Positions 4,491 to 59,399 of a stretch of 64,000 nt of DNA are shown piece by piece. The DNA is from Octopus vulgaris (taxonomy: Eukaryota): assembly GCA_951406725.2 (NCBI GenBank), contig OX597821.1:3100001-3164000 (forward strand), given 5' to 3'. Position 1 is the first letter of the stretch. Each line of letters begins with the position of its first letter. The position numbers and the translations under genes were made by a program. Under the pieces are notes generated by a model. That model was given only the letters and a program-made list of their open reading frames with translations, was not told the origin of the DNA and searched no databases.

Positions 4491-6064
4491 TTCTGGTAAA
4501 AAAATAAGACGCTGTTCAACATGCGCAGTTGTGGATCTATTCCCATCTGAAACGTAATGCAAATCGAGCGTCAGTCGACAACTTCATTCAGTTCCTAATC
4601 CTGGGAGGTAGATTCGCTGAATTGCAATACTGTTAGGACGTATAACTTGCTTATATGTTTTCACTGTTCGACCTCTTAATTCAAATCTAGCCACACTGTA
4701 TTTGATGCTGATAAGTTACACAAGTGAACACTATTATCTAATATCTGAGGTGTTTTTACTGGAGTTATGTCTGGTGCAAGCATCAAGGAATGACCCTGAT
4801 ATTAGTATAAATTCTTTCTTCCATCCAAACCACATTATCAGATATTAAAAAAATTCAATGCAAATCCTCCAACGCAGCAAACAATATAATCACTCCAACA
4901 CTAGACATGTAATAGCCCAAATTCTACTAATTATTGTTTATATATATTATAAATTTGGTAGGGCTCCTCATACACACATTTCAAAGTAAGATAACAAAAA
5001 ATCAACATATTTCTCGATCAGCATTTCAGCAACACCTCTACTAAGAAAAATCCATGGTGGAGCGCTGTAATGTTTTCTTACTTCATCTAGACTAAAGTAA
5101 TAGTTGAGTGTATAAACAATGCCAGCTGAATGACTATTCCAGAAAAGTAAAGTTTAGTTTTGTAAATATAGATTAGCAGAGTCGCAAGAAGTACTTAATA
5201 ACATATGGGAAATATAAGGCGCCAACAAATGGATTTTTAAAATTACTACGACTGGCAGAACATTCATGCGATTATAACTTGCCAACCACAATGACAAAAA
5301 ATAAATGATCACTTCTATAATACCCAATCTGCCTGATCTCAATGTGTCTATCTATTAGTAATTCCATCTAAATTGTATAGCCGTCTGCTCCTACTGGTAG
5401 AAGTCTGCGTGTGAGTAAACATACATATACATACATACAAACATGCACGCATACACACACGCACATATATATACATACACATATATGCATATATATATAA
5501 ACATAAATATATACATACATACATACATATATAAGGAAGAAATAACTACCTTGACCAATACATTGATATCCTGTCTAAATTTCCCCTTAGACGCAATACC
5601 AATGTTAGGCCAAACATTAACAAATCAGAGATGTCTGCATGTAAACGTATACAAAACGATCAAACAATAATAATTAAACAAGCAGATAAAGGTGGTGCAA
5701 TTGTTATTATGGATACCGAATACTTTAAGGATTTGGTTGAGGACCAACTGAAGGACACAACCTTCTATTGTGAAATACCCTCAAATATAGACCACCACAT
5801 CATGAAAAAGATCAACAAACTGATTTCACAACACTACAACTCACTTACCGATAATTAAAGAGACTACATCGTCAATTTCGAAGCAAAACCCAGCAACTTC
5901 TACGGCTTACCGAAAATACATAAATCAAAAGATATTCAACAGGCAGTAAAAGAACAAAAAGTGAGTACATAAAATTACTACATACAAAAGATCTAAAACT
6001 TAGACCTATTATAGCTGGTCCAGCATGCCCTATCCACAGTCTAAGCAATTTTATTGATATTGTT

Positions 6065-7540
6065 TTGAAACCACTATGTACTTACATACCCAGTTTCATC
6101 AGGGATGACATCGACTTCCTGTCCCATCTACCCAAAACAACAGAAACAAATTCAGTTTTACTAAGTTTTGATGTGGTAAGCCTCTACACCAATATTCCAC
6201 ACGCTTTAGGAATAAAGGCGATTAAATACTGGTTAGAAAAACATAGAGAAATGATTCCCAGCAGATTCACAGTGCCATTTATATTAGACACAGTCACACT
6301 TATTCTAGAAAACAACACGTTCTTCTTCAATGGAAAGAATGACATCCAAATTAGAGGCACGGCGATGGGAACGAGGTTTGCTCCCGTTTACGCCAACTCT
6401 GTAATGGGATACTTAGAACAACAGCTCTACCAAGAGGTGGAGGTAAACTATGGCACTGGATTTAGAAAATATATTGAAAAGGCATGGAAGAGATACCTAG
6501 ACGACTGCTTCATAATCTGGACAGAATCTCTAAATACTCTGGAAGAGTTCAATATCCTCCTGAACAACCTACACCCATCTCTCCAATTTACAAAGGAGAT
6601 GAGTAGTACCAAATTACCATTCCTAGATATAATGGTAATTAAAAAAGACACCACCATCACCACAGCTATATACTATAAACACACAGACACACATCAATAC
6701 CTGAATTTTAAGTCGTGCCATCCACCACATACAAAACGCAACATCCCATACTGCCTAGCCGTAAGAATTTGTACCATTGTAGAAGATGCAAATATCAGGA
6801 ACAGACGCCTAACAGAACTAAGAGAATTTTTGCTCAAACAAAAATACCCATCTCTACTTATAGAAAATGGCATACAGTGGGCTATAAAAATAACCATACA
6901 ACAACTTAGGACAACCCAAAGAAGAGGAAAACAAGAACAAGTCATACCATTCATAGTGACACACAACCCATGTCACCAGAATATCTTCAACATTGCCAAA
7001 GCAAACCTACCAATCATTGCTCAAAGTAATGAATTAAAAGATATAATCACGGATCGAGCTATGGTTCTTAGTAAAAGACAGCCTAAAAACTTGAAAAAAT
7101 TACTAACAAAGGCAAAATTTGACCTTAGCAACAAAGACCAAACATTCACTGTATCTAAATGCAATGATAGCCGATGTTGCACATGCCAATTCATACATAC
7201 CGGCCAATATATAAACACAAAAACCGGGAAAATATTCACAAACGCGAATATGAACTGCAAAACCAAAAATTTAATTTACTGCATCAAATGCCCAAATTGT
7301 GAAGAAATATATGTAGGTCAGACGGGAAATGCACTATCAGAACGCTCACGTGTACACCGACAACGGATTAGAGACCCAGAGGTCCGTCAGATACCTTTGA
7401 GTAACCACCTAGAAACATGTGGTCGGAAAATATATATAATATTTCCATTTTACAAATTACACAGCCCAAGTGAAATCGAGAGGAAAATCAGAGAAAAGAA
7501 TTTTATTGATAAATTCGAACCCAAGCTAAATAAGCAATAA
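6065..7540 (+). CDS. Penelope-like RT core-thumb-Zn finger-GIY-YIG ORF (491 aa uninterrupted portion of a disrupted ORF)
   Basis: ORF track; YLDD catalytic motif and IY..YVGQT GIY-YIG motif. The Cys-rich linker is consistent with Neptune-type PLEs (inference). Confidence 0.85.
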   Translation: MKPLCTYIPSFIRDDIDFLSHLPKTTETNSVLLSFDVVSLYTNIPHALGIKAIKYWLEKHREMIPSRFTVPFILDTVTLILENNTFFFNGKNDIQIRGTAMGTRFAPVYANSVMGYLEQQLYQEVEVNYGTGFRKYIEKAWKRYLDDCFIIWTESLNTLEEFNILLNNLHPSLQFTKEMSSTKLPFLDIMVIKKDTTITTAIYYKHTDTHQYLNFKSCHPPHTKRNIPYCLAVRICTIVEDANIRNRRLTELREFLLKQKYPSLLIENGIQWAIKITIQQLRTTQRRGKQEQVIPFIVTHNPCHQNIFNIAKANLPIIAQSNELKDIITDRAMVLSKRQPKNLKKLLTKAKFDLSNKDQTFTVSKCNDSRCCTCQFIHTGQYINTKTGKIFTNANMNCKTKNLIYCIKCPNCEEIYVGQTGNALSERSRVHRQRIRDPEVRQIPLSNHLETCGRKIYIIFPFYKLHSPSEIERKIREKNFIDKFEPKLNKQ

Positions 7541-8019
7541 TAATAATACTTAGAGGTACTAATTCTACTGCTACGACCAATGACCACTAACAACAACAAC
7601 AACAACAACAATACTAAAGGTGATCAAGATGAAGATAGCAGGAAAATTATCTTATTTAGGGTTAAAAGTTCTATTGCCACCACCATCACCACTAGCAACA
7701 ATAATTAAGGTGCTGACAATGATGATGATGACAATTGAAATATAAAAATCCCTGACAAAGGCTATTTACAACATTTCTAAAAATAACCCAACAATTGCTG
7801 CCTCGGCCAGGGTTAAGATACAGGACTCTTGACATGTCCAACAAAGCGTGACGCCTAAACCAATCAGCTTAAGTAATTGAGTTATACTACACACTGATTG
7901 GTCAGAATACAGTTTGCAAAACCTAGCAATCTGGAGTGCACACAGCTGTATTTAAGGCACAGATTTAATCATCTCGCCACAGTCAAAAATTGTGAAGCAT
8001 GACTGTCACAACTACTACA

Positions 8020-8066
8020 TGAACCTGAAGATTGGAGAATTTAATGCATGAAAGTACTATATCAAT
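8020..8066 (+). ncRNA. Decayed hammerhead ribozyme motif in PLE 3' region
   Basis: CTGAAGA (8025-31) ... GAAA-GTAC-TA (8050-59) with palindromic stem III; stems I and II poorly paired. Confidence 0.5.
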
Positions 8067-8225
8067 CAGAATGAACATTTAACATTCTATCATTTTATTT
8101 TATTTTATTATATTATCTTATCTTATATTATATCATTATAAGATTGTAAATAAAACGTGAAAATGAGACAAGGTTGTAATCCTTTTTATTAATATATTCT
8201 TCTATACACAATCACACACACACCC

Positions 8226-8306
<81 letters not shown>

Positions 8307-10104: not shown

Positions 10105-10138
<34 letters not shown>

Positions 10139-10583
10139 CTTACTGAAAAACACCAAAAATATCACAAAAGCTGTAACTTTCACGTTCCGTTCGTTGGACA
10201 GTTTTGTTTGTAACGTGGAACTGTGGGTAATAGTTTTTGTGCTATTTTTGAGACTTTTCAATAAAACATTTAATCTACCTCTTTTATTCGAGTACTATTT
10301 TTCCACCTTGTTTCACATTTATTTGCTTACTCTGGTATGAATACACACACACACATATATATATGTGCGTGTGTGTGTGTGCGTGTGTGTACGTATGTAC
10401 GTATATATATGTATTGTCTATATATTATAGGCGGTACAGGAAACAAAGGAGCCAGAGAAATAAAAAGACACACAGTTAAGCCCATGCTCATTTATACTGT
10501 CACACATGCGTACCATCGTGTATACACACACACACACACATACATCTCCACTTTTGTGCATAAATGTCCATGTGCATGTGAAC

Positions 10584-10618
<35 letters not shown>

Positions 10619-14114: not shown

Positions 14115-14256
14115 CTTTTCTGCTATAGGCAAAAGGACTGAAATTCGATCCGAGTGTTTCAATGGTACTTAATTTATCGGTCGCAAAAGGATGAAAAGAA
14201 AGTCAACCTCGGCAGAATTTGAACTCAGGAAGAAGCGACGGGCAAAATGCCGCTAA
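14115..14256 (-). mobile_element. SINE family A fragment
   Basis: tggtacttaatttatcggtc..aaggatgaaa..aagtcaacctcggcagaatttgaactcag. Confidence 0.75.
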
Positions 14257-14269
14257 TTATAATAATAAT

Positions 14270-16930: not shown

Positions 16931-16950
16931 ATGGTATAAGCACAATCCAG

Positions 16951-17125
16951 AGGCGGCAAGCTAGCAGAAACGTTAGTACGCCGGGCGAAATGCGTAGCCG
17001 TATTTCGTTTGTCATTACGCTCTGAGTTCAAATTCCACCGAGGTTGACTTTGCCTTTCATCCTTTCGGGGTCGATAAATTAAGTACCAGTTATGCACTGA
17101 GGTCTATGTAATCGACTTAATCTGT
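16951..17125 (+). mobile_element. tRNA-type SINE (family A)
   Basis: ggcggcaagctagcagaaacgttag (A-box-like) ... gagttcaaattcc (B-box) ... gaggttgactttgcctttcatcc. Confidence 0.85.
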
Positions 17126-17128
17126 CGA

Positions 17129-17600
17129 TTACATAAATGAAGCACCGAAAACCTTCACGAAGAAGGTTATGGTGACTATTTGGTGGTTTACTGTTGGACT
17201 TATCCAATTTAACTTTTTAAAATCCGTAAAAAGAATTACTGCAGAAACATATGAAATTTCCAAAATGAACAAAAAAGTGCTACTTCTCCATCCCAGACTG
17301 GTCAACAGAAGTGGGCCAATCATTTTCCATCACAATGCTCGACCACACGTTTCACTAATGACGCTCCAGAAGTTGAGGGAAGATGGCTACAAAGTTCTTC
17401 GCCACCCAGCTTATTGCCCCAATCTATCTCCCACCAACTGCCATTTTTTCAGGCACCTTCTTGGTTTCGAACAAGAGAAGGAGATCAAAAATCCACCCGA
17501 TGCTAGTAATGCGTTCAAAGAATTCATCAGGTTCAGGAACCCAGATTTTTATGTTATCGGAATAATCCAACTTGTAGCTCGTTGGCAATCATCAGTAGAA
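17129..17600 (+). mobile_element. mariner transposase catalytic-domain fragment (pseudogene)
   Basis: VMVTIWW..GLI, IIFHHNARPH (xHDNARPH), LRHPAYCPNLSPTNCHFF (YSPDLAPSDF), LVARWQ. Confidence 0.88.
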
Positions 17601-17785
17601 TATAGCAGTAATATATCCGAGAATTTATCCGAAATTGTGTACACTTTCTAATTCATTCCTTCCCGTTCGCACCTGCGGTTGAATAGAGAGCTCACATTTT
17701 AGAGTGGATTGTAGGTATTTGACTGCTAATTCTAGCCCAGTCGCTGGTTATTTCCAGTAGTCCGTAACTATAATTATATTTTTCT

Positions 17786-22310: not shown

Positions 22311-22842
22311 CACCATCATTCAGGTTCAGTGTTGAAGATGGACCTCCAAATGTACAGAGCTGATAAAGTATTTTTTATGAACAATTCATAGGTATCTACC
22401 CATGAAACTCTACACGAGCTTCGACACAGATATTGCCTGTGAGTGTTGATTCAAATAACTGCATACTTAGCCGTAGTGGCTACTGTCAAAAGAGAATAAG
22501 CTAGAAGAGTCACTGCTAGACATTACAACCCACAATATTACTGTTGTGCCAATTCAACCTCCTGGATTATCTCTTGTTGAACGATCACGAAAGAATGAAA
22601 TTTAATGATTAATTTTAGATGGTAGAGAGTGAAAATAAATAACTCTCCAATGATTTTTCTATGTGTTCACTAAGAGGAATTTTTCTGTATTGCGGGAAAC
22701 GGATGTGCTCTTTATGCAGAGTGATTCTCTTCCTCAAAGTTAAACTCGTTTGTCCAATGTACTGATGACTGCAACCCGAGCAGATTATTACATAAATTAG
22801 GTTCTCAGATGCACAGGTGAAATTAGTTTTAATTGTGAAACT

Positions 22843-25800
22843 ATGTCCTTGTTTGAAAAGGAAATCCGAGCATTCAGGGACATATTAAAAGAATTGAAAG
22901 AAATTAACTCAAATTTAGTTATTCTAACTAACAAAATAGATGGACTAAATTACCGTACCCGAGAAGAAACGGAATTGAAACAAAGAAGACAATCTACAGA
23001 ACAGGTTAGTCAAAATTTGAACAAACTATGCACGACATTGCATTCATTTTTGACAAATAAGTTTGAAAAAGAATCATCAACACATTTAATTAAAAGTCGA
23101 GTTAACCAGATTTGGCTAAAATCTCAACACAAGGAAATTTTCTTTCTGTAATATGACAATAATTAACAACACAGCAGAAATTTACGCAAAATGGAATAAC
23201 TGAACACCGTTAATCCTACCACGCAAATTTCAAATTAAACCAATCCCAGAAGAACCAGAACAGCAAAGAAAACTTAGGGAGAAATTAGCATTAGAAAAAT
23301 TAAAAATAGAAATTGAGTTACTCAAACTCAGAGCTTCGAGTAACGAACAAAAATACAAAACGATCGTTGAGGAAATGCACTCCGAACTCACCAAACATGC
23401 TGAGGGACAACTTTTGGAAAGCATTTTAAAAGTATGGAAAAACAGCTGTGAGACGGAAGAAATAAACTCCCTGCAACGATGGGAAACAGTATTAACTACT
23501 TCCTCAATTATGAAGCTCAATTCAAAAGAGACTACACTTCAGATAACCCCTTCATAAAACAATCTAAAACAAATGCATCTACACAAATAAATACACATCC
23601 ACCTAAGATCAAACAATCAAAATCCCAAATAACACAAACACAGTAATGTAACCCAACGCCTAGAAGTAAACCATTCTCTGTCTAATAACAGGAACTCTCA
23701 TTCTATTAGAAACACTTGAAGAAACCAGCCGAGAGTAAGGAGTGATAATTTATTCTACCCAGCATCTAGAAATATACAAGAGACCCCCTTTACCCCTCAA
23801 CGAAGAAACAACATAATTAAACACCCCAAGAATTCACTCCAGCGAAGAAATCCTAACCACGTGCCCCCAACCAGTTTACCCAGGCAACAACACCAACCCC
23901 CCAGCTACCCGAATATAATAAGTACTAATAATACTGATTTAATTAATAACAATAATAACACAAATAATAAATTCTACCAACCGAACTTCAATCAACATTT
24001 TTTAGACCAAGTGGAAAGAAACGGGGACACACGTTGGAACAAAACTTACAGGAGAAACCCAAAGTCATTAACTTATCAAAGAAAACTCTATCCATAACAA
24101 AAATCAATATACTAGCCAAAGGTTGAAAGTTCACCCCAACCCCACGAAGAGCTAACCATAATGAAATTAAAGACAATATTTCGGAATTGTGCAGAAAACT
24201 ACGACTCGCAGAAGCACTAACTGACTACGACAACGAAGATGAATCACTAGCTAAAAACAGAAGTAATTACCTTCCTCATAAGGGTAGGAATAAAACACTG
24301 GATGACTACTGCAACCATATCCAAAATTTCCCCTACACATTCATTAAACGAAAAATTAATCCTAACCTCAACAATCTAGAATGGAAAAATCTGACTGAAC
24401 TAAAAAGACTTGACATTTAAAGAAGGTGACAAAGGAAGTGCTGTAGTTCTGATGGACACAGAACCCTATAAAAAACTAGTACTTTCCATATTAGAAAACG
24501 AGGCCTTCTACGAAAAAATTATAAACTATAAACAACAAAAATCAATGAAAAATCTTGAATCCTTAATTCTTCTACATGGAAAAGGCCTGACAGAAAAAGA
24601 AACAGACTACATCACGAACTTTTTTATGGCCTCCCTAAAATACACAAGAGCAAGATAATCAATGAAGCCTGCAAACAATCACCAGGTAAATATATAAACA
24701 TCTAGACGCCAGAAGACTTGCCTTCAAGACCCATTGTAGCTGGGCCAGCCTGTGAAACCCACCGACTGAGCAATTTTCTAGACATCCTACAGAAACCCTT
24801 CCTGAAATACGTCAAAGGCTTCATTAGGGATTATTTAGACATGTTAGAACCAAAAACGATTAATGTAGAGGCAGTATTGGTCACACTTTATTTCCTATTT
24901 GATGAGACATACTATCGTCAGAAATGCGGAATTGCGATGTGTACGAAAGCAGCTCCTGTTCTTGCGAACCTAATATTGGGTTATTTTGAATTCACCTTAT
25001 ATGAAGTATCACTCCAGAAATATGGTTACCCATTTTACCTCTACATAAGAGAAAATTGGAAGCGATACCTGGATGACTGCTTTATCATCTGGAAGGAGAA
25101 CATCGACAAACTTTTGGATTTCAAATCAACACTAAATAACATAAATAGTAACAGTCAATTCACAATGGAATATAATAAAGAACAATTTCTATTTTTAGAC
25201 ATCATGATAAATTAAAGTTAATGAAATCATAACTGACATTTATTATAAACCAACTGACTCAAACCAATATCTTCTTTTTAACCCATGCCACCCGAAACAC
25301 ATAAAAATAAACATCCCTTTTAACTTAGCAAAAAAGATCTGCACAATAGTGTCTGATAGAACAACTCGAGACCTTCGTCTTCAAGACCTCAAAAACACAC
25401 TTATTGAAAGTCAATATCCACCCTCTCTTATCGACGAGGGAATTAAACGTGCCAAACAATTAGACACAAAAACACTAAGAACAAAAACACAGAGCACCAC
25501 ATCGCAAACAAAAACATTACTTTTTATATCAACACACAACCCCAGAAACAGTGAGGCATTCAACCCGATTGTGCAAACTCCCCCTTTACTAACTAGACAT
25601 CCAGAAATGAACGACATCCTGAAAACACACAAACACATCAAATGCAAAAAACAAGAAAAATCGCTAAAGAGACTACTAACAAATGCGAAGCTTTACAAAA
25701 CAACCACGAAACCAACAGTTGAAAAATGTAGACGCCCGAATTGTGGCACCTGCCCCAACCTGCTTGAAGGCTCGGATTTCTTTTTCACCTTTTCATACAA

Positions 25801-26630
25801 GGACAGAGGTTCACAATTAAAACTAATTTCACATGTGCCTCTGAGAACCTAATTTATGTAATAAACTGCTCGGGTTACAGTCATCAGTACATTCGACAAA
25901 CGAGTTTAACTTTGAGGAAGAGAATCACTCTGCATAAGGAGCAAATCCGTTTCCCGCAATACAGACAAATTCCTCTTAGTGAACACATAGAAAAATGTGC
26001 TGGTAACATCAAACCAAATTTTACAATTTTCCCTTTCTACCAGTGCAAAGACATAATCTCTCAACTAGAACGCTTAAGTAAAGAAACTGTTTTCATTGAA
26101 AAATACAAAACGCGTCTTAATATGCACACATAACTAAAATTTATATTTTTACATATTACTTCACTGTACATAAATCTCCTACTAAACAAGGTCCTTTTTT
26201 TTTAACCTGTCTCCTTTCTGTACACATATTTATTCCCCACCCAAAACCTAAACCGTTATCTCCCTTACACGCAACAATAACAATAATAACAACCAATTAC
26301 CTCCCTTTACATGTCAACTTATAAAATCATTCACTCGTGAATTTCATTACAGGCAGCAAGGACCAAATTTCTTCTTGAGAAGAAATATATATTCATATAA
26401 ATTAAGCATTGTATCATGAATACCGATTGTGAAACCGGTCGATACATTAAAAAAATATTATAACCATGTAAGTGTGCGTATTTTTCTTTTTTTTGTTTTC
26501 TTATATACATTACTCTTCGTTCTTTGTTAGTTAAATAATTTAAATCTTGAATATTATATTTTATATATTTTGTATATTATATTAATTAATTTTATTTCTA
26601 TGTTTTAGTTTATGCTTTTCACTCTTTGAT
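22843..26630 (+). mobile_element. Second Penelope-like element, long copy with N-terminal region, RT and GIY-YIG; multiple frameshifts
   Basis: ILAKG*KFTPTP, KEGDKGSAVVLMD, FYGLPKIHK, RPIVAGPAC, GIAMCTKAAPVLANL, WKRYLDDCF, FLDI, CRRPNCGTC, NLIYVINC..YIRQT, QIPLSEH..KC. Confidence 0.9.
26410..26446 (+). ncRNA. Decayed hammerhead ribozyme motif in PLE 3' region
   Basis: Stem I tgtatc/gataca flanks GAAA-CCGG-TC; the CUGANGA box is mutated (atgaata). Confidence 0.5.
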
Positions 26631-27542
26631 TTGCCTAATAGTGGTTTTATCTCTAATTCAATTTATTTATATATATATATAAAGGGAAGACAAGTGGTGT
26701 ACAAAACAAACCTGCGCTCAGAATCAAGATCACACAAAAACACACAAAAATTACATATTTACATACATACAAGCATAAAGCAGAATATACAAATCAGGAT
26801 ACATATAGATAAAAACAAAATTACCCTGTTGTTGATGTTGGAACTCCAATGATGGAGCTTTGAATCTAGGTTAGAAACCGGCTCTTTCTATATTAGTAAG
26901 AAACCTTGAAATAAAACTGAACAATGACACACATGTCTATATACTTATCTCTCATTTTCCTTTTTGGTAACTATGAAAAGCTACTTATTAAACGTGTACG
27001 TGATATACTCTTAGAAATTTGTATTCAAATGTTGGTAAATCATCTCTAATTTGCAGTCACGCTTCTGTCTCCTCTCTTTTCTTATCTTGAAATAACACTA
27101 CCTTGTTCAGACAGACTGCAATTTGCTTTGCATACGACTGTAGCATTTATAAATTACTGCGTGCAACATACTATGTCATTGCTTGTCTTGTCAATATTAT
27201 TGCTCCTTATTCGCCTCTATTAAATCGCTATTTCTATATTGAGAATAACTCTAACTTTCAGACTTTTTAAAAAATTTGAACGTGTTTCTCTGAATTCATT
27301 CATATTCATTACCAATGTATATTTACGTTTCGTTTTCCTTATAACTTTGTTGATGGTTGACTAGGTGGTAGTTATTGCAGTCATTCACCGTCCTCGTTGT
27401 GTGAAGGATACATTATTTGCATTTTATAAACGTTTTCATTCTATATTCCTGTTTTTTTATTTCCTTTTATTTCCTTTTATTAGAGATGCTTCTGCCTGAC
27501 ATAATTTAATACTTCCAGATATTACAGATGCAAATTTCACAT

Positions 27543-28704: not shown

Positions 28705-29093
28705 AGAGAGACTTAGTAATTTTAATATTTCTATTATTGAAAACAAGTGCCTGTATTCCACTGAAACTAGGTAAATAAATCCTTCGAACAGGGACGATCA
28801 GTAGCGACACCTGCAAGTCTGACTACGCTGCATTGAAAAGGGGCAACAACACTGAAACGTCTGTAGCTGTCTGACTGGCAGGATGAAGCGGCTGACCTCC
28901 CTTGTTCGAAGGTTTATAATGGACGCAATTTTTGTGCCAAATAGCTAGCTTAAGGCGATGGCCTCATGAAGCTAATCAGCAACAGCTTTAGTCTTATATT
29001 TATAAGACTGACATATTAGTATGGCGATAACTATTAATTTCCAGTAACGCTGCCGTAATCTCCTGTAGAGAGACTTAGTAATTTTAATATTTC

Positions 29094-29099
<6 letters not shown>
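28705..29099 (+). mobile_element. 362-bp non-coding unit with 33-bp terminal redundancy and internal hammerhead-like motif, inside TA-rich microsatellite
   Basis: agagagacttagtaattttaatatttctattat at 28705 and 29067; motif gctgca-TTGAAAA-...-GAAA-CG-TC-tgtagc at 28827-28867. Confidence 0.65.
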
Positions 29100-29151: not shown

Positions 29152-29575
29152 GTAAATATATATCTATACATATTTATATATATATATATATGTGCGTGTG
29201 TCTTTGTACCTCATCATCACCTGACAACCGATGTTGCTCTATTAACAACCCCAAAATAAGCTGTTTGTGACGTCCTGTCTTTGTTATTATTATTATCATT
29301 ATTGTTTTTACGTATTTTCGTATTCATATTCGTGTAACATCGTCCGTTTTTCCGTCTTTGATTAATATACATTCGAGGCTTTCTTCCAAGGAATATAATG
29401 CGCTGAGCTTAGATTTCCCTTGGGGCTGGCCAGATTGGACCAATCTCAAGATTAATCAGCCGAAATTGCGAGGAGGATCCGGTTCTTGACTGAAGATTGA
29501 AGGCTTCGTATGTCCCATGTTTTTTGTATCGTCTTCTAAATGTTTTGCGTTCTTGTCCCAGTTTGTATTTTTTAC

Positions 29576-29649
<74 letters not shown>

Positions 29650-31149: not shown

Positions 31150-31724
31150 CACGTACACACACACGTACACACATACTGACGTACACATGTGTGGTGTGCG
31201 TGTGTGCTTATATACATCTATCCATTTGCCAATGTATCTATCTATTAATGCATACGAAAACAAAGTTAATATCAAACGTTTGCGGAATTCAAAGAACATT
31301 TTCAATTCCATTGCCATAAAGAAACGCTTGAGATATCTTCATTGATTCAGTCTATTGGGAGAGTGTAAGGTGATTTAGTCTGCCTTGCTCTGATTTTGTC
31401 TCCAGTATGAAGTCAGGTAATATGTATAAAAGATGCATTTAACCACGTATTTACTACACTTAAGAAATTTGGGAAACAGGTGCCGTTTTTCCTTCATTAT
31501 AACATTCCGAAATAAACTGCTTTCCAAAGTTATCTTGAATTTCGTAATCAAATATGATAATTAGCTTTATGAAATTGATAATGTATGGCTGTCATTATAA
31601 TGGTTTTTCACATTGCAAAATATGTTAATTATTTCATGACTGTCAGCGCCATCCACTTCTGTTCCTATTCGAAATTATTTGGTTCTATATGTTTATTCAT
31701 GTATTTTTCTAAACTTATGTATGT

Positions 31725-32120
31725 TACTCTTTTACTCTTTTACTTGTTTCAGTCATTTGACCGTGGCCATGCTTGAGCACCGCCTTTAGTCGAGTCACTC
31801 GACACCAGGACTTATACTTTGTAAGCCTAGTATTTAATTTATCGGTTTCTTTTGCCGTACCGCTAATTACGGGGACGTAAACACACCAGCATCGCTTGTC
31901 AAGCGATGTTGGGGGAGGGGCAAACACCCCCCACACCCACACACACACATATATATATAAGACGGGCTTCTTTCAGTTTCCGTCTATCAAATCCCCTCAC
32001 AAGGCTTTGGTCGACCCGAGGCTATAGTAGAAGACACTTGCCCAAGCTGCCACGCAGTGGGACTGAACCCGGAACCATGTGGTACATAAGCAACTTATCT
32101 AACACACAGCCACTCCTACG
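31725..32120 (-). mobile_element. tRNA-type SINE (family B) with internal CA/TA microsatellite
   Basis: Reverse complement of 49650-50045; ggttcagtccc B-box-like, gggcaagtgtcttctactatagcctcgg, gacggaaactgaaagaagcccgt. Confidence 0.85.
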
Positions 32121-32830
32121 CCTGTTCAGCTTTTTCTTTGTCATCTAGTTGCACCAGATCCTTGTAACTTTACACTAGAAAAGTATTTGTTGCGTTAACA
32201 GAGAGGAAAATTATATTCACATATAAGCGGAGAAATAGTTACTTTTGAATTGGTGAATTCCTACTTATTCGAAGATTATACAAATTAAAATGAAAGGAAA
32301 GAAAACTGACGCTGCTATAAACGTATTCTTTTAAGAATGAGAAAGACAAATGCTGACATGTATGGATGTTAGCTTAACGTTCAGTAACTTTACAAGACCT
32401 TCGAAAATATATTTAGCTTAATACAAAATCAATAGTCAAGTAAAACATGTAAAGAGAAGCAGGTTTCTTCTTACATCGATAGAAAACAACAACAACAACA
32501 ACAATAATAATAATAATGATAATAATAATATTAATTATAATAATGATAATAATAATAATTATAATAATAATAATAATAGTAGTAACAATAATCTTATACC
32601 CGCAAAAAAACACATTTTCTTTCAATATTTTTTCTTCCTCCTTTCATATTAAGTTTAAGTAAGTGAGATACACGTTATCTAGGAATTTTTATTGCCATTT
32701 CATAACCTATATATTTCTTCACGTGATGCATCGAAAAATGTTTGTCATCGAAACTAAACATTTCCACTTGTACAGCATTTAATATGTGTGTGTGTTTTTA
32801 TGTGTGCGTGTATATATGTTTGTATATATA

Positions 32831-33111: not shown

Positions 33112-33380
33112 AAGTATAGAAGCCATCTTATCATGGCTAACCACATTGGGGAGGGGGTTGTTACTGTAACTTTATAGCCCCAAGAGATCTTCGTCTCTAG
33201 CTGGCTCTAAACACAATATCTGTGTCTTTGGTGTATTTGCAAAGGGAGGTCATCCCTTCCTCGAAAGCCTGAGTGAAACTGCTCGAACTAGTTTCGGGAT
33301 GGTTGTCCCCCGTCAACGGGCGGTTACAACCCCCTCCCCATTGTGGTTAGCCATGATAAGATGGCTTCTATACTTTACAT
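33107..33380. mobile_element. Short element with ~55-bp near-perfect inverted termini and internal decayed hammerhead (minus strand)
   Basis: atgtaaagtatagaagccatcttatcatggctaaccacattggggagggggttgt is the reverse complement of 33326-33380 (one mismatch). Confidence 0.8.
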
Positions 33381-33474: not shown

Positions 33475-33670
33475 CATATTATTGTCAGTAAACAGGTCAC
33501 GGTGTTATAGCCACGAAAATATTTTGAGAAATTAAACTTAAATGTTGAAGTGAATCGAACGGCTTTTGTGTCTTTTAAATTGTTTCGGAAAGTTATAATC
33601 ACTCTGTATACGCATTCGCAGAGATAAACACAGACACACACATATATATATGAATATATACATGTGTGTT

Positions 33671-39561
<5,891 letters not shown>

Positions 39562-41719: not shown

Positions 41720-41908
41720 TGTGAGCTAGTGTACCGCTAGCCACCACACATTCTTTATTTTCTTTCCTTGTTTCTCTCTGTATTTCTTTCTGTGGAAGAG
41801 CGTAGGCTCGAAACGTTAAAGACTTTATCACTTCCCGTATTTATGCAAATACATCTGTTTGTTGTCTACACCACCTGTCTTCGTCTATTGTATTTTTGTG
41901 TGAATTCT

Positions 41909-41912
<4 letters not shown>
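41720..41912 (+). mobile_element. Short repeat with minimal hammerhead-like motif (second copy 58365-58500)
   Basis: tcttt-CTGTGGA-A-gagc gtag gctc-GAAA-CG-TT-aaaga. Downstream gacttt..cttcc..atacatctgtttgttgt is shared by both copies. Confidence 0.65.
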
Positions 41913-42234: not shown

Positions 42235-42290
42235 CGTGTATTTAAATATATCTACATACATATATACATATATATATAAATATATACGTT
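41913..42290. repeat. (TA)n/(TG)n microsatellite
   Basis: Direct reading. Similar tracts at 8228-8301, 27545-27942, 29098-29190, 33640-33800, 39514-39557, 40937-41000, 44875-45236, 53185-53292, 60105-60157. Confidence 0.95.
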
Positions 42291-42340
42291 TAGATATTTG
42301 TTGTGCAATATTTTTTATGTGAAGTCGTGTGTTGAAACAG

Positions 42341-42676
42341 ATATTGTTATAATTCGGAATGGTCATTTTGCCAGTTGACCCAATAAAATCACACGCACTA
42401 TATATTTGGTGTTGCTTTGCTTCAGTGTTATTTATTTTTTATATTAATCTTAATCTTATTTTGGCCAGAGTTCTTTCGTCAGACTCCTGTGGCCGCATCA
42501 GTGGTCCTTTGTTTTCCTCTTTCTTATTTGTGTCTCTCCTTACTAACCGTCAGCCATTTTGTAAAAAATAAATGTAAAAAATAAAATAACACTGGATCAA
42601 AGTAACACCAAATATATAGTGCGTGTGATTTTATTGGCTCAACTGGCAAAATGACCATTCCGAAATATAACAATAT
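42341..42676. mobile_element. Short element with ~100-bp inverted arms and internal decayed hammerhead (minus strand)
   Basis: ttcggaatggtcattttgccagttga.ccaataaaatcacacgcactatatatttggtgtt is inverted at ~42603-42664. Confidence 0.8.
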
Positions 42677-48144: not shown

Positions 48145-49649
48145 TCAAGAGGAAGAAGAAGACATTGAAGATAAAGATGGATGGGGGGAATGAGCGGAGG
48201 AGGAGGATGAGACAGAGAAGAAGAGGAAGAAGGTGAAAATGAAGTAAAAACGAAATGAAGAAGAAACTAGAGAAGGAAGTGTATGTGAGAACGGACAGTT
48301 GGGGGCAGAAAGGGTGTAATAGCGACACTAACGAGTCATCCCCAAATCGCCAGCAACGCATTACAATGGACAACGGAAAAGTAATTTCGTTGTAGAACCA
48401 TAAATAACTAGTGATAAAATAAAGAATATAACAAAGTGAAACGGAAGGTGATAGTAAGAATAACACCAACGACCACAACAATGATAATAATGAAAAGAGA
48501 ATGATCAGAACATAATAAGCGATATCATTAATGCTATTAATAATAGTAATAAATATAATAATGCTAATATTAAAAATGACAATATTATTAATATACAAAT
48601 AATTGTAATTGTATTAGCGATAGGCACAACAGAACATACGTAAATATATGTTGGAAAGTAACTATCCCTTGATATTTTCATTTGAGTGTTTATTAACAGA
48701 AGCGTTTGGAGCTGCACATACTTGTTTCAAAGGTCTTTTTTTAACTGTGGGGATATTTATATTGTCAGAAGATGAGTAATCTACCATCCTCTTAAAGACC
48801 GAAATCTACAGGGAACAAAATCTCCCCATATTGTACATTCCCAGACATATATTGCCATATTACAATTGTTAAACTAACACGCAAAATGAATATCATAAGA
48901 GGGCAACACTTTTCTAGAATTGCCTTACGACACTATTGTTACATATTGGGATAAAAGTCTGTCATCGAACTCTGAGGAATTTTGAAACAAACCTCTTGTT
49001 AGGGATCGACTGTAATATACGGCACTCTTTTCATTTAAGATTTTATTCTACATTGAAAAATGGACTATTAAATTTAAAAACTAGTTGTAATGATTCTAGT
49101 AATAGAATCTGAAATATTGTACCTTACATATTTCGCAATTATCCGAATTCCTTAATCTACGTATACATTTTAAAAATCATACTTACTATCTAGAAAGTCA
49201 TAATTGGCATGCTTTTAGTTTTTGATGTTGTAAATGCAATTAACATCATTTAAGGGAGAGTTACTTCATCTGGATGCCACATATCCATCATACCCTTAAT
49301 GTAATTCATTTTGAGTAATGCCCAGACGTTTCTTGCATCATGTTAAGGAAGTGTTGCCCTATTTCCAGATTTTGTCAAATCGTCCACGAAGAGTACTTGA
49401 AAAGTTAAGCAGTAATAATGAATTAACAAACGTAAATAGAACGAAGATACTATTGTGGAAGTACGTAAGGTTATCTTTCAAAACAGTTGCATAAGAGACT
49501 GTAATACCTCGAATGCAGCGTGCTGGAACACAGTGTTTTGTGCATAGAAAAGTTGCTGGTAAAAAATATATAAACGGATAACAGCCGCTTAAGAGGTACT
49601 TGATTTGCAGGAAAATTGGTGAAAAAGTTTTGACAGATAAAGGCGCAGA

Positions 49650-50045
49650 AGTGGCTGGTGGTAAATAGCTTGCTTCCCAAGTACATGGATCCGGTTAAAT
49701 TCCACTACGCTGAACCTTGGGCAAGTGTCTTCTACTATAGCCTCGTGCCGACCAAAGACTTGTGAGTGGATTTGGTAGACGGAAACTGAAAGAAGCCCGT
49801 ATGTATATATATGTATGTGTGTGTGTATATATTTGTGTGTTTGTGTTTGTTCCCCTCCCCCAACATCGCTTGACAACCGATGCTGGCGGGTTTATGTCCC
49901 CGTAACATAGCGGTTCGGCAAAAATAGAACAATAGAATAAGTACTAGGCTTATAAAGAATTAGCCCTGGGGCGATTTGCTCGATTAAAGGCGGTGCTCCA
50001 GCATGGCCGCTGTCAAAAGACTGTAACAAGTAAAAGAGTAAAGAG
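49650..50045 (+). mobile_element. tRNA-type SINE (family B)
   Basis: ggcgcagaagtggctg..gcttgcttcccaa..ggttaaattccac..gggcaagtgtcttctactatagcc..aaacaagtaaaagag-type tail. Confidence 0.85.
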
Positions 50046-51363: not shown

Positions 51364-52051
51364 GTCTATCTATCTATCTATCTATATATATATATTACTG
51401 CCAGCCAGTAAGAAAGTGTAAAATAATTGAGACTAGTTCCCCAACAAGCAAATCGAAGAGTGTGTGATGTGATGTGTAATTACTTCAAGATGAGAATGTA
51501 TGCTATTAAGCGTGTAATAACAGGGGAAGTGATTTTTAAAGAATAGATAATTTCGTTTCCCGTATTTAACAATTTGCTTCCTAACAATAGAATATAACGA
51601 GGAAGAATAGGATTTTTTTTTAAAGTACATCAAATTGAAACGTTTCAGGAAAAAAGAAAAACGTGTCGGAAATGCTTCTCAGAAAATTGCCATGTCTATT
51701 ACACAATATTTATTTATGTACGTATGTATGTTTGTTCAGTTATATCGTATGAGTGGAATATGCGTCATCTTACTTTTCCAATGACTTAGTTTTAAACGAA
51801 GAAGTTGTTTGCTTAGCTACGCTGCAACAACTTTCGTGCTGAGACGAAAGATTCAGAAATATTGCGTACCTAATACACGGTTTATGCATTTGTATGTTCG
51901 CAAGAAAAAAGATGCCATAGAGATATCACTCTGCTACAAGGGACAATGATTGTGGCTGACATTGTTTGAATGGAAAAAAAAGATAAGTTTCAATTACTTG
52001 AATGTATTTTGAAGTCTCTAAGCCAACCTTCCAAAAACTGCCGATAAAATT

Positions 52052-52860
52052 AATTTTAAATTTATATAAATAAGGACAAGTTCGCTAATTTAAATTAAAT
52101 ACCGATCTCATCAAGTGGCCAGCATGGAAATAAAAACCTTCAAAGGTTATAATTATTGTGCATTTATGTTACTCTCTGCGTTTATTTCACTGATGAGGCA
52201 AAGTATTTCTAAATGCAAAGTCAGAAATGCAGGATCTGGAATTATCCAGTAATTTTTTACTAATTTTATTTTGTATTTTTGTCTTCTCTCTTTATGCTGT
52301 ATGTGCATCTAATGTAGTTTTAGAGTCAGATCTTGGCTGCCATTTTCAGCATGGTGGTATATCTTAGATACCCTAAATTATAATTTTAATGATAATTATT
52401 ATTTTGAAGGTTTTTATTTCCATGCTGGCCACTTGATAAGATCGGTATCTAATTTAAATTGGCAACCTTGTCCTTATTTATATAAATTTAAAATTCTTTC
52501 GTCACTGTGATGTTTTAACCGTAGCGCACGATGGAGTTACGAAGCGGGCAATTTAAACTGGTCTTGTTGCATATGTGCATATATATATGTATGAATACGT
52601 TCGTATATGTAAATATTCGTATGTTGTATGTAGATATATGTGAATTTATGTTACTCTTTGCGTATATTCCCCTGATGAGGCAAAGCATTACTAAATGCAA
52701 AGCCAGAAATCCGGGATCTGGAATTATCCAGTTATCCAGTGATATTTTGATTTTTTGTCTTCTCTCTTTGTGCTGTATGGGCATTTAATGTGGTTTTAGA
52801 GTCAGATCTTGACTGCTATTACCAGCATGGCAATATCTCTTAGATACCCTAAATTATAAT
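52052..52860 (+). mobile_element. Composite: ~93-bp inverted repeat (52052-52144 / 52403-52495) plus ~220-bp direct repeat (52162-52384 / 52644-52860), each direct copy with a hammerhead-like core
   Basis: CTGATGA-ggc..g(t/c)c-a-GAAA-...-ATC-tggaat at 52184-52242 and 52666-52724. Confidence 0.75.
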
Positions 52861-55659: not shown

Positions 55660-55985
55660 AAGTCTTAGGCTTAATTCAGACGGCTGTGCAAAGCTGCTGA
55701 AGACTGCGGTTAACACCTGCTTGGAATGAGTGGCAACTGGAAGGTCATATGTCTGACAGCAGAACTAGGGATCCTTGCCATAACTTATGACAGGGTCAGA
55801 AGTAGTTGTCGAATAATTTGTCCCAATTCCTGACCTGCTAACTCTGCCGATTGTAGTCCGATGGATTAAAATGTGCGGGTTGCGGTTGAGAGTTATCTTC
55901 CCAGTTACTGAGAGAAGAACTCATTCGCTAGGTTTCTGAGCCGTCTTGGGACCATAGTGGAAGTTGAGAGCGGTGACTTTTTGTC
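55660..55985 (+). mobile_element. Tc1/maT-like transposase C-terminal fragment
   Basis: ATGRSYV*QQ.. and *PANSADCSPMD*NV..AVE (cf. WPPNSPDxNPxDYxVW). Confidence 0.6.
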
Positions 55986-57819
55986 TACCTCCCATCCATA
56001 ACCTAGATGATATTTTACGATTTTTTAAAATTATTATTTTGAGTGAGATATTGCTTTTTTTATTCTTATATGCATACTTATTTGGAACAAACTACGTATT
56101 TCTCAGAGAAAATATTATATTTGAAAATATATACTTAAGCATATATTTCATTAAACATTTTTATGTTTTCGATGAGACAAAGGCGTGTGCCAGTGAAAGA
56201 CAAACAGAATATTTATGAGGTTATATGACTCGTTTAAGGGAGGAGTTGAACAAAAATTCAAAAATTGCTTTTTATTAAATCTTGAGACCTCATCTTTATC
56301 CATGCAAAAATACAGATCTTAATTCATTATGTTTCACATTGGAATTTCTGTGGGAGTGTCAGTAATAAACAAGAGAGGGATGAGCACAGACGAATCTCAT
56401 ATCTGTAGATATAAATAGACGAATGATAATTAAATGCGTTCGGTATCGGTGCGGCATGAACTTTAATCCTGTGTTATTCACTTTTCAAATTCTTGTTATA
56501 TTTTTAGTTGTGTTATGAAGTTACATTAATTCTCCACCGCCCGCAAATACATGCAATCTTCTGTCAACATATCCATGTTTAATAAGTAAATATATTTCAC
56601 AATCACATCCATGAAGTAGCTATAAATTAAAACGATATAACATAAAGCTGCAAATTTCTTCTTGTTTCAATATATCAAAATTTGTCAGACAATAGCTCAC
56701 TCAAACATGTACACAAATTAGTAAAAAAATTCATTAATTTACAAAAACTATGAAGTTAAAACATCATTAATCTTCGAAAAGCTTTAAATATCATATTCGG
56801 CAAATGTCTGAAATGCTAAACGCATTCATATGATTTGGTTATGTTTTGTATTCTTGGTATTTACGAATGTTTGTTCGAGTTACGATAAAAATTAATGCAA
56901 TTATGAACGCTTCAAAGAATTAACGCCATAGATTTAAAGCATCTTATTTTACATTTTTCGCACGTTTAGTACATTTGAGGTGTTTCACTATTTCCATGTA
57001 TTAAAGTATGTTAAATACTATTTCGCTGGAATCACTGTGAACCTCTTACGCAGACTTCATGAGGTAAAATAAAACAAATTTCAGTCCACACTCACACACA
57101 CGCACGTACACATACACTTATAAACACAAACACACATACACATGACCACCATCACATATACACACGACCACGATCATAAACACACACACACACATACATG
57201 GACGCGTACAACCACGTGTGTGTGTTTCTCTGAATTGAATTGTTGAAATGATGTATATATTAATAAGCGTGTGTATGCGTACATATTTATTCGCATACAC
57301 ATAGGTGCAAACACTCAGGTATACGTGCATGTATAGATACATCTAATACCGTAAGCGGTGATTATCTTTTCTTTATAGAGTTACAAGCTGCTTCTATGTA
57401 ATTAAGTATCTAGTGAAGAAATTTTATGAGATGTTTGTATACAGATTTAATATAAATTATTTGCGTTATTGGATTTCCAGCTTGTAACCTAAGATTTCAT
57501 ATTCATTGTAATCTAACATAAGTTGGATCTTTAACATGCTTATTGGAAATAAGTAGTAAGTATTTTATAGTGAAATACAATAGAGGGTACACTTTGAAAA
57601 ACCTCGGACTATGAAACAGTATTAAACGACACTTTGGTGAAAATACACGTAATGACTGTGAACCAGCATAAGCACATCAGATACGCTTCAATGAACTAAT
57701 CGGATGTGAAAGAATATAACAGATGACATAACTGAAGATAGTTATTCTGTACAGAATAGTCGTTGAAGAAAATATACTTAACTGTTGTAGCATTTTTGCT
57801 GTCTTCTTTTATTCCATTT

Positions 57820-58255
57820 TGTGTCTCTGTGGTAAGAGGCTTACTTCCAAACCACATGGATCCATGTTCAATCCCACTGCGTGACACCTTGGGCAAGTGA
57901 TTTCTGCTATATCCTCGAGCCGACCAGTCGATTTGGTAGACGGAAACTAAAAGAAGCCCGTCGTATGTGTATGTTTGTATGTATATATATACATATATAT
58001 TAATGTTTACGTGTATGTCTGTGCGTATGTGTGTTTTTTGACAACCGGTGTTGTTGTGCTTACGTACCTATAAATTCGGGAAAATAGACCAGGTCTAAAG
58101 AAAAAGAAATCTGTTAAGTTGATTCAAATATATTCTTGAAGGTGGTAGTCAAGCATGACCGCAGACTAACGACTGTAATTCCGGCTTCAGTACCTTGGAC
58201 CGACCGAAGTCTTGTGTGTGGATTTGGTAGGCGGAACCTGAAAGAAGCCCATCGT
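57820..58255 (+). mobile_element. SINE family B fragments
   Basis: ggcttacttccaaaccacatgg..caccttgggcaagtg..gatttggtagacggaaact.aaagaagccc (twice). Confidence 0.7.
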
Positions 58256-59399
58256 GTACACATACACACACACATATAGACACACACTTACATACACACA
58301 TACATACATACATACATACATACATACATACATACATACATACATACATACATTCATACATACATATCCTTTCTGTTGAAGAGCGTAGGCTCAAAACGTA
58401 AAAGACTTTCTCACCTTCCAGAGCGTTAAACTAATACATCTGTTTGTTGTTAACACACCCGTTTTCGTCTTTTGTTTTGTTTGTTTATTTTGTAAATTCT
58501 AACTACACACACGCACACACACACACACACTCACACACACACATAAATATATATATGTATGTGTATAAACGTGCTTGTGTGTGTTGGAATTTATAGATAA
58601 CAAGGCCAAATAGATAACAAGGCCAAAGCAAACTGATATTTCAAGGATATTTATAAATAGAATCGTGCCTTACAGCTGTTTCAGAGAAATAAATTATATC
58701 CCATCCTTAGAGACGAGTTAAAAGAGTTCGATAGAAGTAAGTAGTAGAATCCATTGTTTTAGAAGTTATTCTGGAGGTGTGGAGATATACAAGAAATTAG
58801 ATATAATGCAGAAAGTATAAATGGAAAACACGAAAATAAAATTACGTGTTGGGTGTTAAAGTTGCTGTTCCGTTATCCAAGAAATGTGTTGTGTAGACTG
58901 GGTAAAGAGTCTTCTTGTCCATGATGTGTAAAGTCCGATAAGAATTCATATGTTGTTATGTCAAATGCAGGTAATAATACCACGTGTTGTTCATTCAAAG
59001 AATCTTCTGGTATAAAGTAATTTTAAGAATTATACTGATAAGGGGAAATAGTTAAAGGAAGAAAAAATAGTGAAGAATATTTGAAGGAATAAAGAATTAT
59101 GTGTAGGAGAGGGTGATATTCTTAACGTCTAGAGTAGAAGGAGGGAAGGAAAAAGGAAAAGAGAGAAAGAAGATGATAAAGAAAAAGAAAAGGGGGGTGA
59201 TGCATGCTGGTCAATATATTATTGGGGGGGAGAAAGAGTTGACAGTAGATAAAAGGAATAGGAGAGAGACAGAAGAAGGGATAAGATGGTCAAAAAGGTA
59301 ATACTTTCAGCATTATATCTAATTTCTTGTATATCTCTCCCATTCCAGAATAACTTCTAAAAACAACTAGGGATAAGAACATTCTCCTCGATACAACTT

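What the first reader, a model, noticed from the sequence alone, without database searches (positions are those of the whole stretch)
5532..58714. Window-wide pattern: Penelope helpers plus many unrelated hammerhead-bearing parasites in TA microsatellites
Seen: nine sequence-distinct hammerhead-like contexts in 64 kb (8020, 26410, 28827, 33281, the 34090 array, 41785/58369, 42463, 52184/52666, 58667). Nearly all are type I with a minimal, often palindromic stem III, and many abut (TA)n or (CA)n. Inference: a diverse non-autonomous RNA-parasite system that uses PLE RT/GIY-YIG with a preference for TA-repeat targets. Much of what would be annotated as unknown repeat or MITE in this genome could be ribozyme retroelements. 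Only the array has an intact core with fully canonical spacing; the others rest on pattern recognition of variant or decayed motifs.
Basis: inference. Interest (0 to 1): 0.75.

Follow-up and report, generated by a model that had tools for sequence, protein, structure and literature searches.

The report
Penelope hammerheads and passenger retrozymes
This stretch holds at least eleven families of jumping repeats carrying a predicted self-cutting RNA motif: of the nine flagged, five are end-pieces of protein-coding Penelope retrotransposons (one of them only probably) and four are small protein-less repeats that the Penelope enzyme likely pastes into TA repeats, a known partnership seen here at very high density.

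Summary
All nine contexts are real multicopy families whose majority sequence is a minimal type I hammerhead. In the window only the array and 41785 match their family pattern; the other copies are decayed. They are not all parasites. Four (8020, 26410, 41785/58369, 42463) are pseudo-LTRs of RT+GIY-YIG Penelope-like elements (PLEs), and 58667 probably is. Four (28827, 33281, 34090, 52184/52666) are non-coding head-to-tail units of 358-583 bp, that is, non-LTR retrozymes. Both groups share one insertion footprint: two fixed 3' ends, TA-tract junctions, and two-armed insertions pairing one long and one short end (36 of 48 retrozyme, 17 of 20 PLE insertions). A systematic 800-kb sample gave 14 canonical-core motifs against 0 in shuffles; TA lay within 300 nt downstream of 24 of 27 motifs (random 21.5%). 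Most sampled motifs are PLE ends, and the four small units cover only about 0.15% of the sample. Core pair 3-8 occurs as C-G, U-A, A-U, G-C and U.G. Cleavage and expression are untested. The system is in print, and this scan has already noted it, including the footprint and purine-3 cores, on other DNA of this genome.

The parts
5532..8226 (+). 5'-truncated Penelope-like element 1 (RT + C-terminal GIY-YIG frame 5924-7537), between TA-rich tracts
   Evidence: Pfam RVT_1 E 1.3e-5 and GIY-YIG E 3.2e-5; tracts
8020..8064 (+). pLTR hammerhead of element 1; canonical CUGAAGA core, U.U at 10.1-11.1, palindromic stem III; window copy mutated in stems I and II
   Evidence: 20 of 25 family loci (window locus included) have a PLE-protein hit
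22653..26520 (+). decayed Penelope-like element 2 (frameshifted RT and GIY-YIG pieces 24706-26130; inverted piece 22653-22876)
   Evidence: (GIY-YIG E 0.0024); limits approximate
26410..26446 (+). pLTR hammerhead of element 2; family core AUGAAUA (A3-U8), 2-bp stem II, palindromic stem III
   Evidence: 18 of 25 loci have a PLE-protein hit
28705..29099 (+). 364-bp non-coding unit plus 33-bp terminal repeat, TA on both sides; hammerhead 28827-28867, family core UUGAUAA (U3-A8)
   Evidence: upstream direct repeat in 17 of 25 loci, period 350-369 in 16; longest ATG frame 21 aa
33109..33427 (-). two-armed insertion of a 358-bp non-coding unit; hammerhead 33280-33322, family core UUGACGA (U3.G8), U17
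   Evidence: 14 distinct copies among fetched loci; two 3' ends with TA and back-to-back arms
33801..39511 (-). array of nine full 581-583-bp units and one partial unit, TA on both sides; ten canonical hammerheads (first 34090-34180); units alternate between two types
41735..41911 (+). solo 3' end (pLTR) of an abundant PLE; hammerhead 41785-41822 with U at core position 6; TA follows
   Evidence: related repeats (78-89% identical) flank or follow 693-1200-aa RT frames in 9 of 9 fetched loci; RVT_1 and weak GIY-YIG hits
42286..42676 (-). two-armed 5'-truncated PLE end; hammerhead 42463-42507, family core CUGAUGC (C at position 9)
   Evidence: GIY-YIG-region hits upstream on the same strand in 5 of 25 loci
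52043..52860 (+). two-armed partial tandem of a 480-505-bp non-coding unit; hammerheads 52184-52242 and 52666-52724, canonical core, extra A before G12
58366..58503 (+). second solo pLTR of the 41785 family; hammerhead 58368-58405, G12 mutated
58608..59366 (-). two-armed 5'-truncated end of a probable PLE with an about 1-kb 3' UTR; hammerhead 58667-58714, canonical family core
   Evidence: decayed RT-like and GIY-YIG-like frames upstream in L364, L370, L376, L378, L380; no Pfam match
62549..62608 (-). fragment of an eleventh family with canonical core, cut right after the CUGAUGA box
   Evidence: whole motif seen in L263 and L390

Best explanation
The window is a dense sample of one Penelope-like retrotransposon system: five of the nine flagged hammerhead-shaped motifs are pseudo-LTR ends of RT+GIY-YIG elements (one only probably), and four lie in non-coding head-to-tail units (retrozymes) that are likely copied and inserted by the same kind of enzyme. 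Shown: family membership, the ORF link, tandem periods, two fixed 3' ends, long-plus-short pairing of ends in two-armed insertions, TA junctions. Inferred: a PLE protein binds the RNA, cuts both strands of a (TA)n tract and primes reverse transcription on each cut strand at two different internal start sites; finished or aborted copies give single arms, tandems and back-to-back arms. Inferred: the short, mostly palindromic stem III lets two hammerheads fold and cut as a dimer, giving unit-length, possibly circular RNA. Which PLE family moves which retrozyme is not resolved.
For: ORF link. No PLE-protein hit belonging to the unit in the four small families: 1 of 105 loci had a hit, downstream and on the other strand; longest ATG frames 21-68 aa. 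Tandem periods about 364, 358, 583 and 480-505 bp. Two 3' ends 26-127 nt apart in seven families. Two-armed insertions: one long and one short end in 36 of 48 small-unit cases (2 long-long, 0 short-short, 10 other) and 17 of 20 PLE cases (0, 0, 3) (one 26410 case left out because its short end was not defined). This fits the in vitro result that a PLE protein cuts and extends both strands, prefers AT-rich DNA and starts at two internal RNA sites bounding the tail (PMC11167929, parts 1-2 of the text read). TA: 159 of 217 3' junctions, 92 of 207 5' junctions, 3.3% of random positions; unbiased sample 24 of 27 within 300 nt downstream, 10 of 27 upstream, random 21.5%. Core covariation: with positions 3 and 8 free, 17 of 19 motifs in the 800-kb sample are Watson-Crick paired, 4 of them not C-G.
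Against: No sequence homology between the four small units and the five PLE references in hand; the one hit is simple repeat, so no helper is identified. TA adjacency is not exclusive: with a strict junction measure the 41785 family scored 5 of 19 alignment ends, and two unrelated abundant repeats 57 of 164 and 16 of 44 at one end; the junction counts are biased upward by masking of simple repeats and by use of best-scoring copies. The 10-unit array alternates two unit types (12-15 differences between, 1-4 within) with a weak 4-unit period, so it is not one pass round one monomer circle; local duplication or a dimeric template is needed. No cleavage was tested; published PLE hammerheads cut slowly or need protein (PMC4209133, PMC11167929), 8 of 9 frog retrozyme dimers did not cut (bioRxiv 2026.07.22.740005), and A6 changes lower activity (PMC3088659). 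The 58667 coding part has no Pfam match and only weak similarity to other PLEs here (E 0.002 in a 7-protein set).
Confidence: 0.82

Rival explanations
1. All nine are non-autonomous ribozyme parasites.
For: Four families are non-coding tandem units; most 41785 copies are short solos, median 192 bp.
Against: RT/GIY-YIG sequence lies directly upstream in 8020, 26410 and 42463 copies, and 41785-type repeats flank long RT frames as direct repeats; solos show staggered 5' ends and no tandem period.
Confidence: 0.04
2. The four small units are simply pLTRs of PLEs whose bodies were not sampled, or satellites expanded in place by unequal crossing-over, not separately mobile RNAs.
For: Only 25-30 loci with 1.5-kb flanks were read per family; the window array shows higher-order duplication; the 2026 preprint discusses local amplification of pLTRs.
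Against: Upstream of a unit lies the unit's own 3' end, not an ORF; copies are dispersed over many contigs, each with its own TA junctions and two-armed ends.
Confidence: 0.1
3. The hammerhead folds are vestigial: inherited PLE protein-binding or structural motifs that no longer cut RNA, at least in the A6U and A9C families.
For: The highest-copy family in the sample has U at position 6, also in long-ORF copies with matching pLTRs; hammerhead mutants did not affect PLE insertion in vitro (PMC11167929).
Against: Pair 3-8 covaries through all four Watson-Crick forms with stems kept, which is hard to explain without selection on the catalytic fold. This rival concerns catalysis only and is compatible with the mobilisation model.
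Confidence: 0.2
4. The motifs are chance matches in AT-rich, repeat-rich DNA.
For: Seven of nine window copies fail the family pattern; Rfam finds none; monomer folding z-scores were not significant.
Against: 14 versus 0 in shuffles in the unbiased sample; family majority rows restore the pairs that window copies break.
Confidence: 0.01

Closest known systems
Minimal type I hammerheads in pLTRs of metazoan Penelope-like elements (Cervera and de la Pena 2014, PMC4209133; parts 1-2 of 4 read)
   Same: Minimal palindromic stem III, bulged base after A9, thousands of solo motifs from truncated PLEs, opposite-strand pairs 100-700 bp apart, U3-A8 variant.
   Different: A3-U8, G3-C8, U3.G8, A6U and A9C cores fixed in whole families are not in the parts read; its supplementary figures were not seen.
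Metazoan non-LTR retrozymes (PMC7229834, passages seen; Li, Clavereau and Pollet 2026, bioRxiv 10.64898/2026.07.22.740005, parts 1-3 of 5 read)
   Same: Non-coding, low-GC head-to-tail units of a few hundred bp with one type I hammerhead each; proposed to be non-autonomous PLE derivatives moved by PLE enzymes.
   Different: The preprint argues from co-occurrence and pLTR homology; here no homology to a PLE in hand was found, but the insertion footprint (two ends, two arms, TA) is shared. circRNA and cleavage were shown for some published families and are untested here.
EN+ PLE insertion anatomy (Craig et al. 2021, PMC8557442, passages seen) and Poseidon in vitro mechanism (Frangieh et al. 2024, PMC11167929)
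   Same: 5' truncation, partial tandems, inverted 5' copy, tail at one end only, (TA)n bias; non-autonomous head-to-tail derivatives are described for Chlamys.
   Different: Tails here are 26-127 nt against the 30-40 bp described; the strict long-plus-short pairing is counted here on non-coding units.
Natural hammerhead core variants (Perreault et al. 2011, PMC3088659, section 8 read)
   Same: U3-A8 covariation, U10.1-U11.1 mismatch, 2-bp stem II, a position-6 change with low activity.
   Different: A6U rather than A6C; purine-3 pairs and A9C are not named in that section's text (its figure was not seen).

Membership tests
Type I hammerhead ribozyme | Three stems round a CUGANGA/GAAA/UH core, open at stem I | tested here: met
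   Family majority rows of 8020, 34090, 52666, 58667 have the canonical core
Type I hammerhead ribozyme | Canonical core letters in the other five flagged families | tested here: not met
   26410 A3-U8, 28827 U3-A8, 33281 U3.G8, 41785 A6U, 42463 A9C; pair 3-8 is kept in all; filed as variants, not canonical members
Type I hammerhead ribozyme | Self-cleavage 3' of H17 | not testable with these tools
   No assay; only contigs, no raw reads, were listed
EN+ Penelope-like element | One ORF with RT and C-terminal GIY-YIG | tested here: met
   8020, 41785 (GIY-YIG below Pfam cut-off), 26410 in pieces, 42463 by distant tblastn hits
EN+ Penelope-like element | ORF for the 58667 family | tested here: inconclusive
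   RT-like and GIY-YIG-like motifs read by eye, motif names recalled; no Pfam or Atlas match
EN+ Penelope-like element | pLTR with hammerhead, 5' truncation, inverted 5' copy, tail at one end | tested here: met
EN+ Penelope-like element | Clade (Penelope/Poseidon, Neptune, Nematis, Hydra) | not tested
   No reference set or tree built
Non-LTR retrozyme | Head-to-tail non-coding unit of a few hundred bp, one type I hammerhead per unit, GC under 50% | tested here: met
   28827, 33281, 34090, 52666: periods, GC 0.30-0.44 and frames of at most 68 aa
Non-LTR retrozyme | At least two consecutive complete hammerheads (the 2026 preprint's 'active' criterion) | tested here: inconclusive
   Met by the 34090 array; not counted for the other three families
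Non-LTR retrozyme | Accumulates as unit-length circular RNA | not testable with these tools
   No run on record as RNA; contigs cannot show ends or circles
Non-LTR retrozyme | Homology to a PLE pLTR (24 of 57 frog families in the preprint) | tested here: inconclusive
   None to five PLE references; the genome holds many more PLE families

The most novel reading that the evidence does not exclude
This genome runs a natural mutagenesis experiment on the hammerhead core: whole transposing families carry A3-U8, G3-C8, U3.G8, A6U or A9C cores that canonical searches miss and that still cut, probably as protein-assisted dimers; and retrozyme RNAs unrelated in sequence to any PLE are captured by PLE enzymes through structure alone and written into TA tracts by priming both cut strands at two fixed sites.
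Probability: 0.35. Interest if true: 0.65.

Novelty: new member of a known kind. Interest (0 to 1): 0.42.

Why it matters
It gives a countable genomic footprint, shared by coding PLEs and non-coding retrozymes, for a mobilisation route that the literature read here argues from co-occurrence and homology. It maps, per family, two predicted reverse-transcription start sites that can be tested in the existing PLE in vitro assay. Extrapolating the 800-kb sample, the genome holds of the order of 50,000 canonical-core motifs and about twice that with variant cores, so hammerhead censuses that fix C3-G8 and A6 undercount. It does not show that ribozyme parasites explain much of the unannotated repeat fraction.

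Tried and rejected
Rfam: no hammerhead in the window (150 of 204 matches listed, all low-complexity hits) or in nine family loci. Monomer folding of nine motifs: z-scores -1.6 to +1.1, and several windows were misplaced, so uninformative. A two-unit fold of the array gave stem I probabilities 0.61-0.68 and inter-unit stem III 0.24-0.28: compatible with a dimer, not proof. Expression: no RNA holder listed for the array unit; four runs guessed to be RNA were laid as contigs and cover parts of the unit, with loose TA ends at both mapped 3' ends, but cannot show expression, ends or circles. Naiad idea: an RT piece close upstream of a 41785 copy (L058) suggested a C-terminal-RT element; full copies have RT then GIY-YIG, and L058 is an internal deletion. 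A GIY-YIG frame upstream of 58667 copy L386 was rejected as a separate insertion. Pfam and ESM Atlas gave nothing for 58667 frames. No phage match to the array unit (irrelevant control). The first tail table cut the 26410 and 42463 references at internal TA and was redone. Families at 10145, 26774 and 29312 are repeated and TA-adjacent, but no hammerhead was established. L281 (two hits, one two-armed insertion) was dropped from the 27-motif TA count before I knew it was a real G3-C8 family. Lunse et al. (PMC5785218) was not held, so its variants could not be checked. Literature searches for novelty; none listed a paper on natural A3-U8 or G3-C8 cores or on two-armed retrozyme insertions, but these are word searches of an open library. 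A 2026 octopus repeat annotation (PMC13282606, term search only) has no occurrence of 'ribozyme' or 'hammerhead'; the window's taxon was not tested here.
Full report
Setting. The window is G000:C8:3100001-3164000 of a 2.8-Gb genome in 227 contigs. It is AT-rich and full of microsatellites. In an evenly spaced sample of 80 x 10 kb, (TA)n runs of at least four units make up 3.2% of the DNA, so TA adjacency needs controls.

The observation. A structure-constrained scan of the window finds an intact canonical type I hammerhead only in the ten units of the 33801-39511 array; with one core mismatch it adds 41790 and 58710 plus two likely chance hits. I therefore searched the genome with each context and aligned 25-30 best copies. 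Every family has a majority row that folds as a minimal type I hammerhead, and the majority restores pairs that the window copy breaks. Cores: canonical in 8020, 34090, 52666 and 58667; A3-U8 in 26410 (20 of 25 rows); U3-A8 in 28827 (22 of 25); U3.G8 in 33281 (23 of 25); C9 in 42463 (24 of 25); U6 in the majority row of 41785. Against chance: 10 canonical motifs in the window versus 0 in each of 100 local dinucleotide shuffles; 14 in the 800-kb sample versus 0 in each of 8 shuffles; 29 versus 0-3 with variant cores. The stem options and variant list were chosen after seeing the families, but the shuffles used the same descriptor. Scaling 14 per 0.8 Mb gives of the order of 50,000 canonical-core motifs in the genome (my arithmetic, wide error).

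Two kinds of family. The 8020 and 26410 motifs lie 300-500 bp behind RT and GIY-YIG frames in the window, and 20 of 25 and 18 of 25 family loci have PLE-protein hits, mostly upstream on the same strand. Five of 25 loci of 42463 have distant GIY-YIG-region hits upstream. For 41785, an RT piece found upstream of one copy has 5069 first-look candidates, many in frames over 1000 aa; 41785-type repeats (78-89% identical) lie behind the frame in 9 of 9 fetched loci and on both sides in 6, with RVT_1 and weak GIY-YIG matches. For 58667, about 1 kb of pyrimidine-rich UTR leads upstream into decayed frames with RT-like and GIY-YIG-like motifs in five loci, and 6 of 11 new loci found with such a frame carry the 58667 end; Pfam and the Atlas do not confirm them, so this assignment is probable only. 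These five show staggered 5' ends and no tandem period: they are 5'-truncated PLE insertions. The other four are different. Upstream of each unit lies its own 3' end, with periods of about 364 (28827), 358 (33281), 583 (34090) and 480-505 bp (52666); only 1 of their 105 loci has a PLE-protein hit, and it belongs to a neighbour; their longest ATG frames are 21-68 aa and they share no sequence with each other or with five PLE references. These fit non-LTR retrozymes.

One insertion footprint. Seven families show two fixed 3' ends 26-127 nt apart, both running into TA. Many insertions have two back-to-back arms. One arm ends at the long end and the other at the short end in 36 of 48 small-unit insertions (2 long-long, 0 short-short, 10 other) and 17 of 20 PLE insertions (0, 0, 3) (overlapping loci removed, one 26410 case left out). 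Four window insertions (33281, 42463, 52666, 58667) are two-armed. Craig et al. describe the inverted 5' copy, the one-sided tail and (TA)n bias for PLEs (PMC8557442, passages). Frangieh et al. show that a purified PLE protein cuts and extends both strands, prefers AT-rich DNA and starts at two internal RNA sites that bound the tail (PMC11167929). The simplest reading is that both cut strands prime, one at each site, and that the small units use the same enzyme type. This step is inferred; no helper is identified. I had seen the two ends before consulting earlier scan notes; the formal pairing count was prompted by them.

TA preference. (TA)3 lies at 159 of 217 3' junctions and 92 of 207 5' junctions against 3.3% of random positions; this count is biased by masking and by best-copy choice. 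In the unbiased sample a TA run lies within 300 nt downstream of 24 of 27 motifs, upstream of 10 of 27, and downstream of 21.5% of random positions. Against exclusivity: with a strict alignment-end measure the 41785 family scored 5 of 19, and two unrelated repeats reached 57 of 164 and 16 of 44 at one end, others 1-17 of 125-152. TA on both sides of many insertions favours insertion into existing tracts, but empty sites were not examined.

How much is parasite. Of 27 sampled motifs, sorted by eye, 10 are 41785-family, 1 is 42463-family, 4 are canonical-core sisters of 41785, 3 resemble 26410, about 5 resemble small-unit families and 4 are unassigned. The four small units cover about 0.15% of the sample and the five PLE references about 1.1%. 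The pattern is genome-wide but dominated by PLE ends.

Core variants. Mapping the window on the sample revealed two missed families: 33481, whose majority has G3-C8 with a 7-bp stem I and 5-bp stem II (14 copies), and a cut fragment at 62557 of a canonical family. With positions 3 and 8 free, 17 of 19 motifs in the sample and 90 of 108 in all loci (family-biased; 11 more are U.G) are Watson-Crick paired. U3-A8 and the U.U start of stem II are known natural variants (PMC4209133, PMC3088659). My searches listed no paper on natural A3-U8 or G3-C8, but Lunse et al. was not held and figures and supplements of the papers read were not seen. An earlier scan note reports purine-3 cores in this genome. 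Covariation argues for selection on the catalytic fold; it does not show cleavage, and the A6U core of the commonest family, present in long-ORF copies, may be slow.

The array. Units 2, 4, 6, 8 differ by 1-3 letters, units 3, 5, 7 by 1-4, and the two types by 12-15; units 3 and 7 share an indel. It arose from a two-unit template or by local duplication, not from one pass round one monomer.

Verdict. Observation confirmed; interpretation partly supported. The window shows PLE pseudo-LTR hammerheads and non-LTR retrozymes, both described, with their link proposed in 2020 and argued in a 2026 preprint. What this adds is a counted shared footprint and family-fixed core variants, both also noted by this scan elsewhere in the same genome. 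Interest 0.42.

Noticed in passing
window 33801-39511: Array units alternate between two types with a weak four-unit period; unit 9 is a hybrid.
   Followed up: partly
window 33481-33532 (+): Tenth hammerhead family with G3-C8 core, two 3' ends and back-to-back arms; no helper ORF tied to it.
   Followed up: partly
window 62549-62608 (-): Fragment of an eleventh family with canonical core, cut after the first box.
   Followed up: partly
window 26774-26947 (+): Repeat family with a GAAA plus palindromic ACCGGT but a degenerate first box; may be an older hammerhead family; ends in (TACA)n.
   Followed up: partly
window 10145-10337 and 29312-29576: Repeat families with TA-adjacent ends, the first two-armed; no hammerhead established.
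   Followed up: partly
L358:1300-2300 (-): Another tandem unit of about 590 bp (by eye) with a canonical hammerhead, 69% alike to the 34090 unit's 3' part; L291 has a similar motif.
   Followed up: no
L346-L352: A young PLE subfamily with frames of 1046-1200 codons and matching pLTRs that carry U at core position 6; many near-identical copies.
   Followed up: partly
L058: Internally deleted PLE joining the RT region to the 3' UTR and 41785-type end.
   Followed up: partly
window 17121-17648 (+): Mariner-type transposase fragment, Pfam Transposase_1 E 7.5e-10.
   Followed up: no
window 4238-4507, 14139-14260, 16946-17138, 31678-32128, 49620-50042, 57819-57981, 61395-61833: Very abundant short repeats (74-148 overlapping hits in 800 kb), probably SINE-like; used only as controls.
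   Followed up: partly
window 968-2437 (+): Repeated stretch with a 231-codon frame and no Pfam match; looks like a decayed non-LTR retrotransposon (recalled resemblance).
   Followed up: no
L359:1223-3841 (-): 873-codon LINE frame (endonuclease, RT, PHD/C1-like finger) next to a PLE copy.
   Followed up: no
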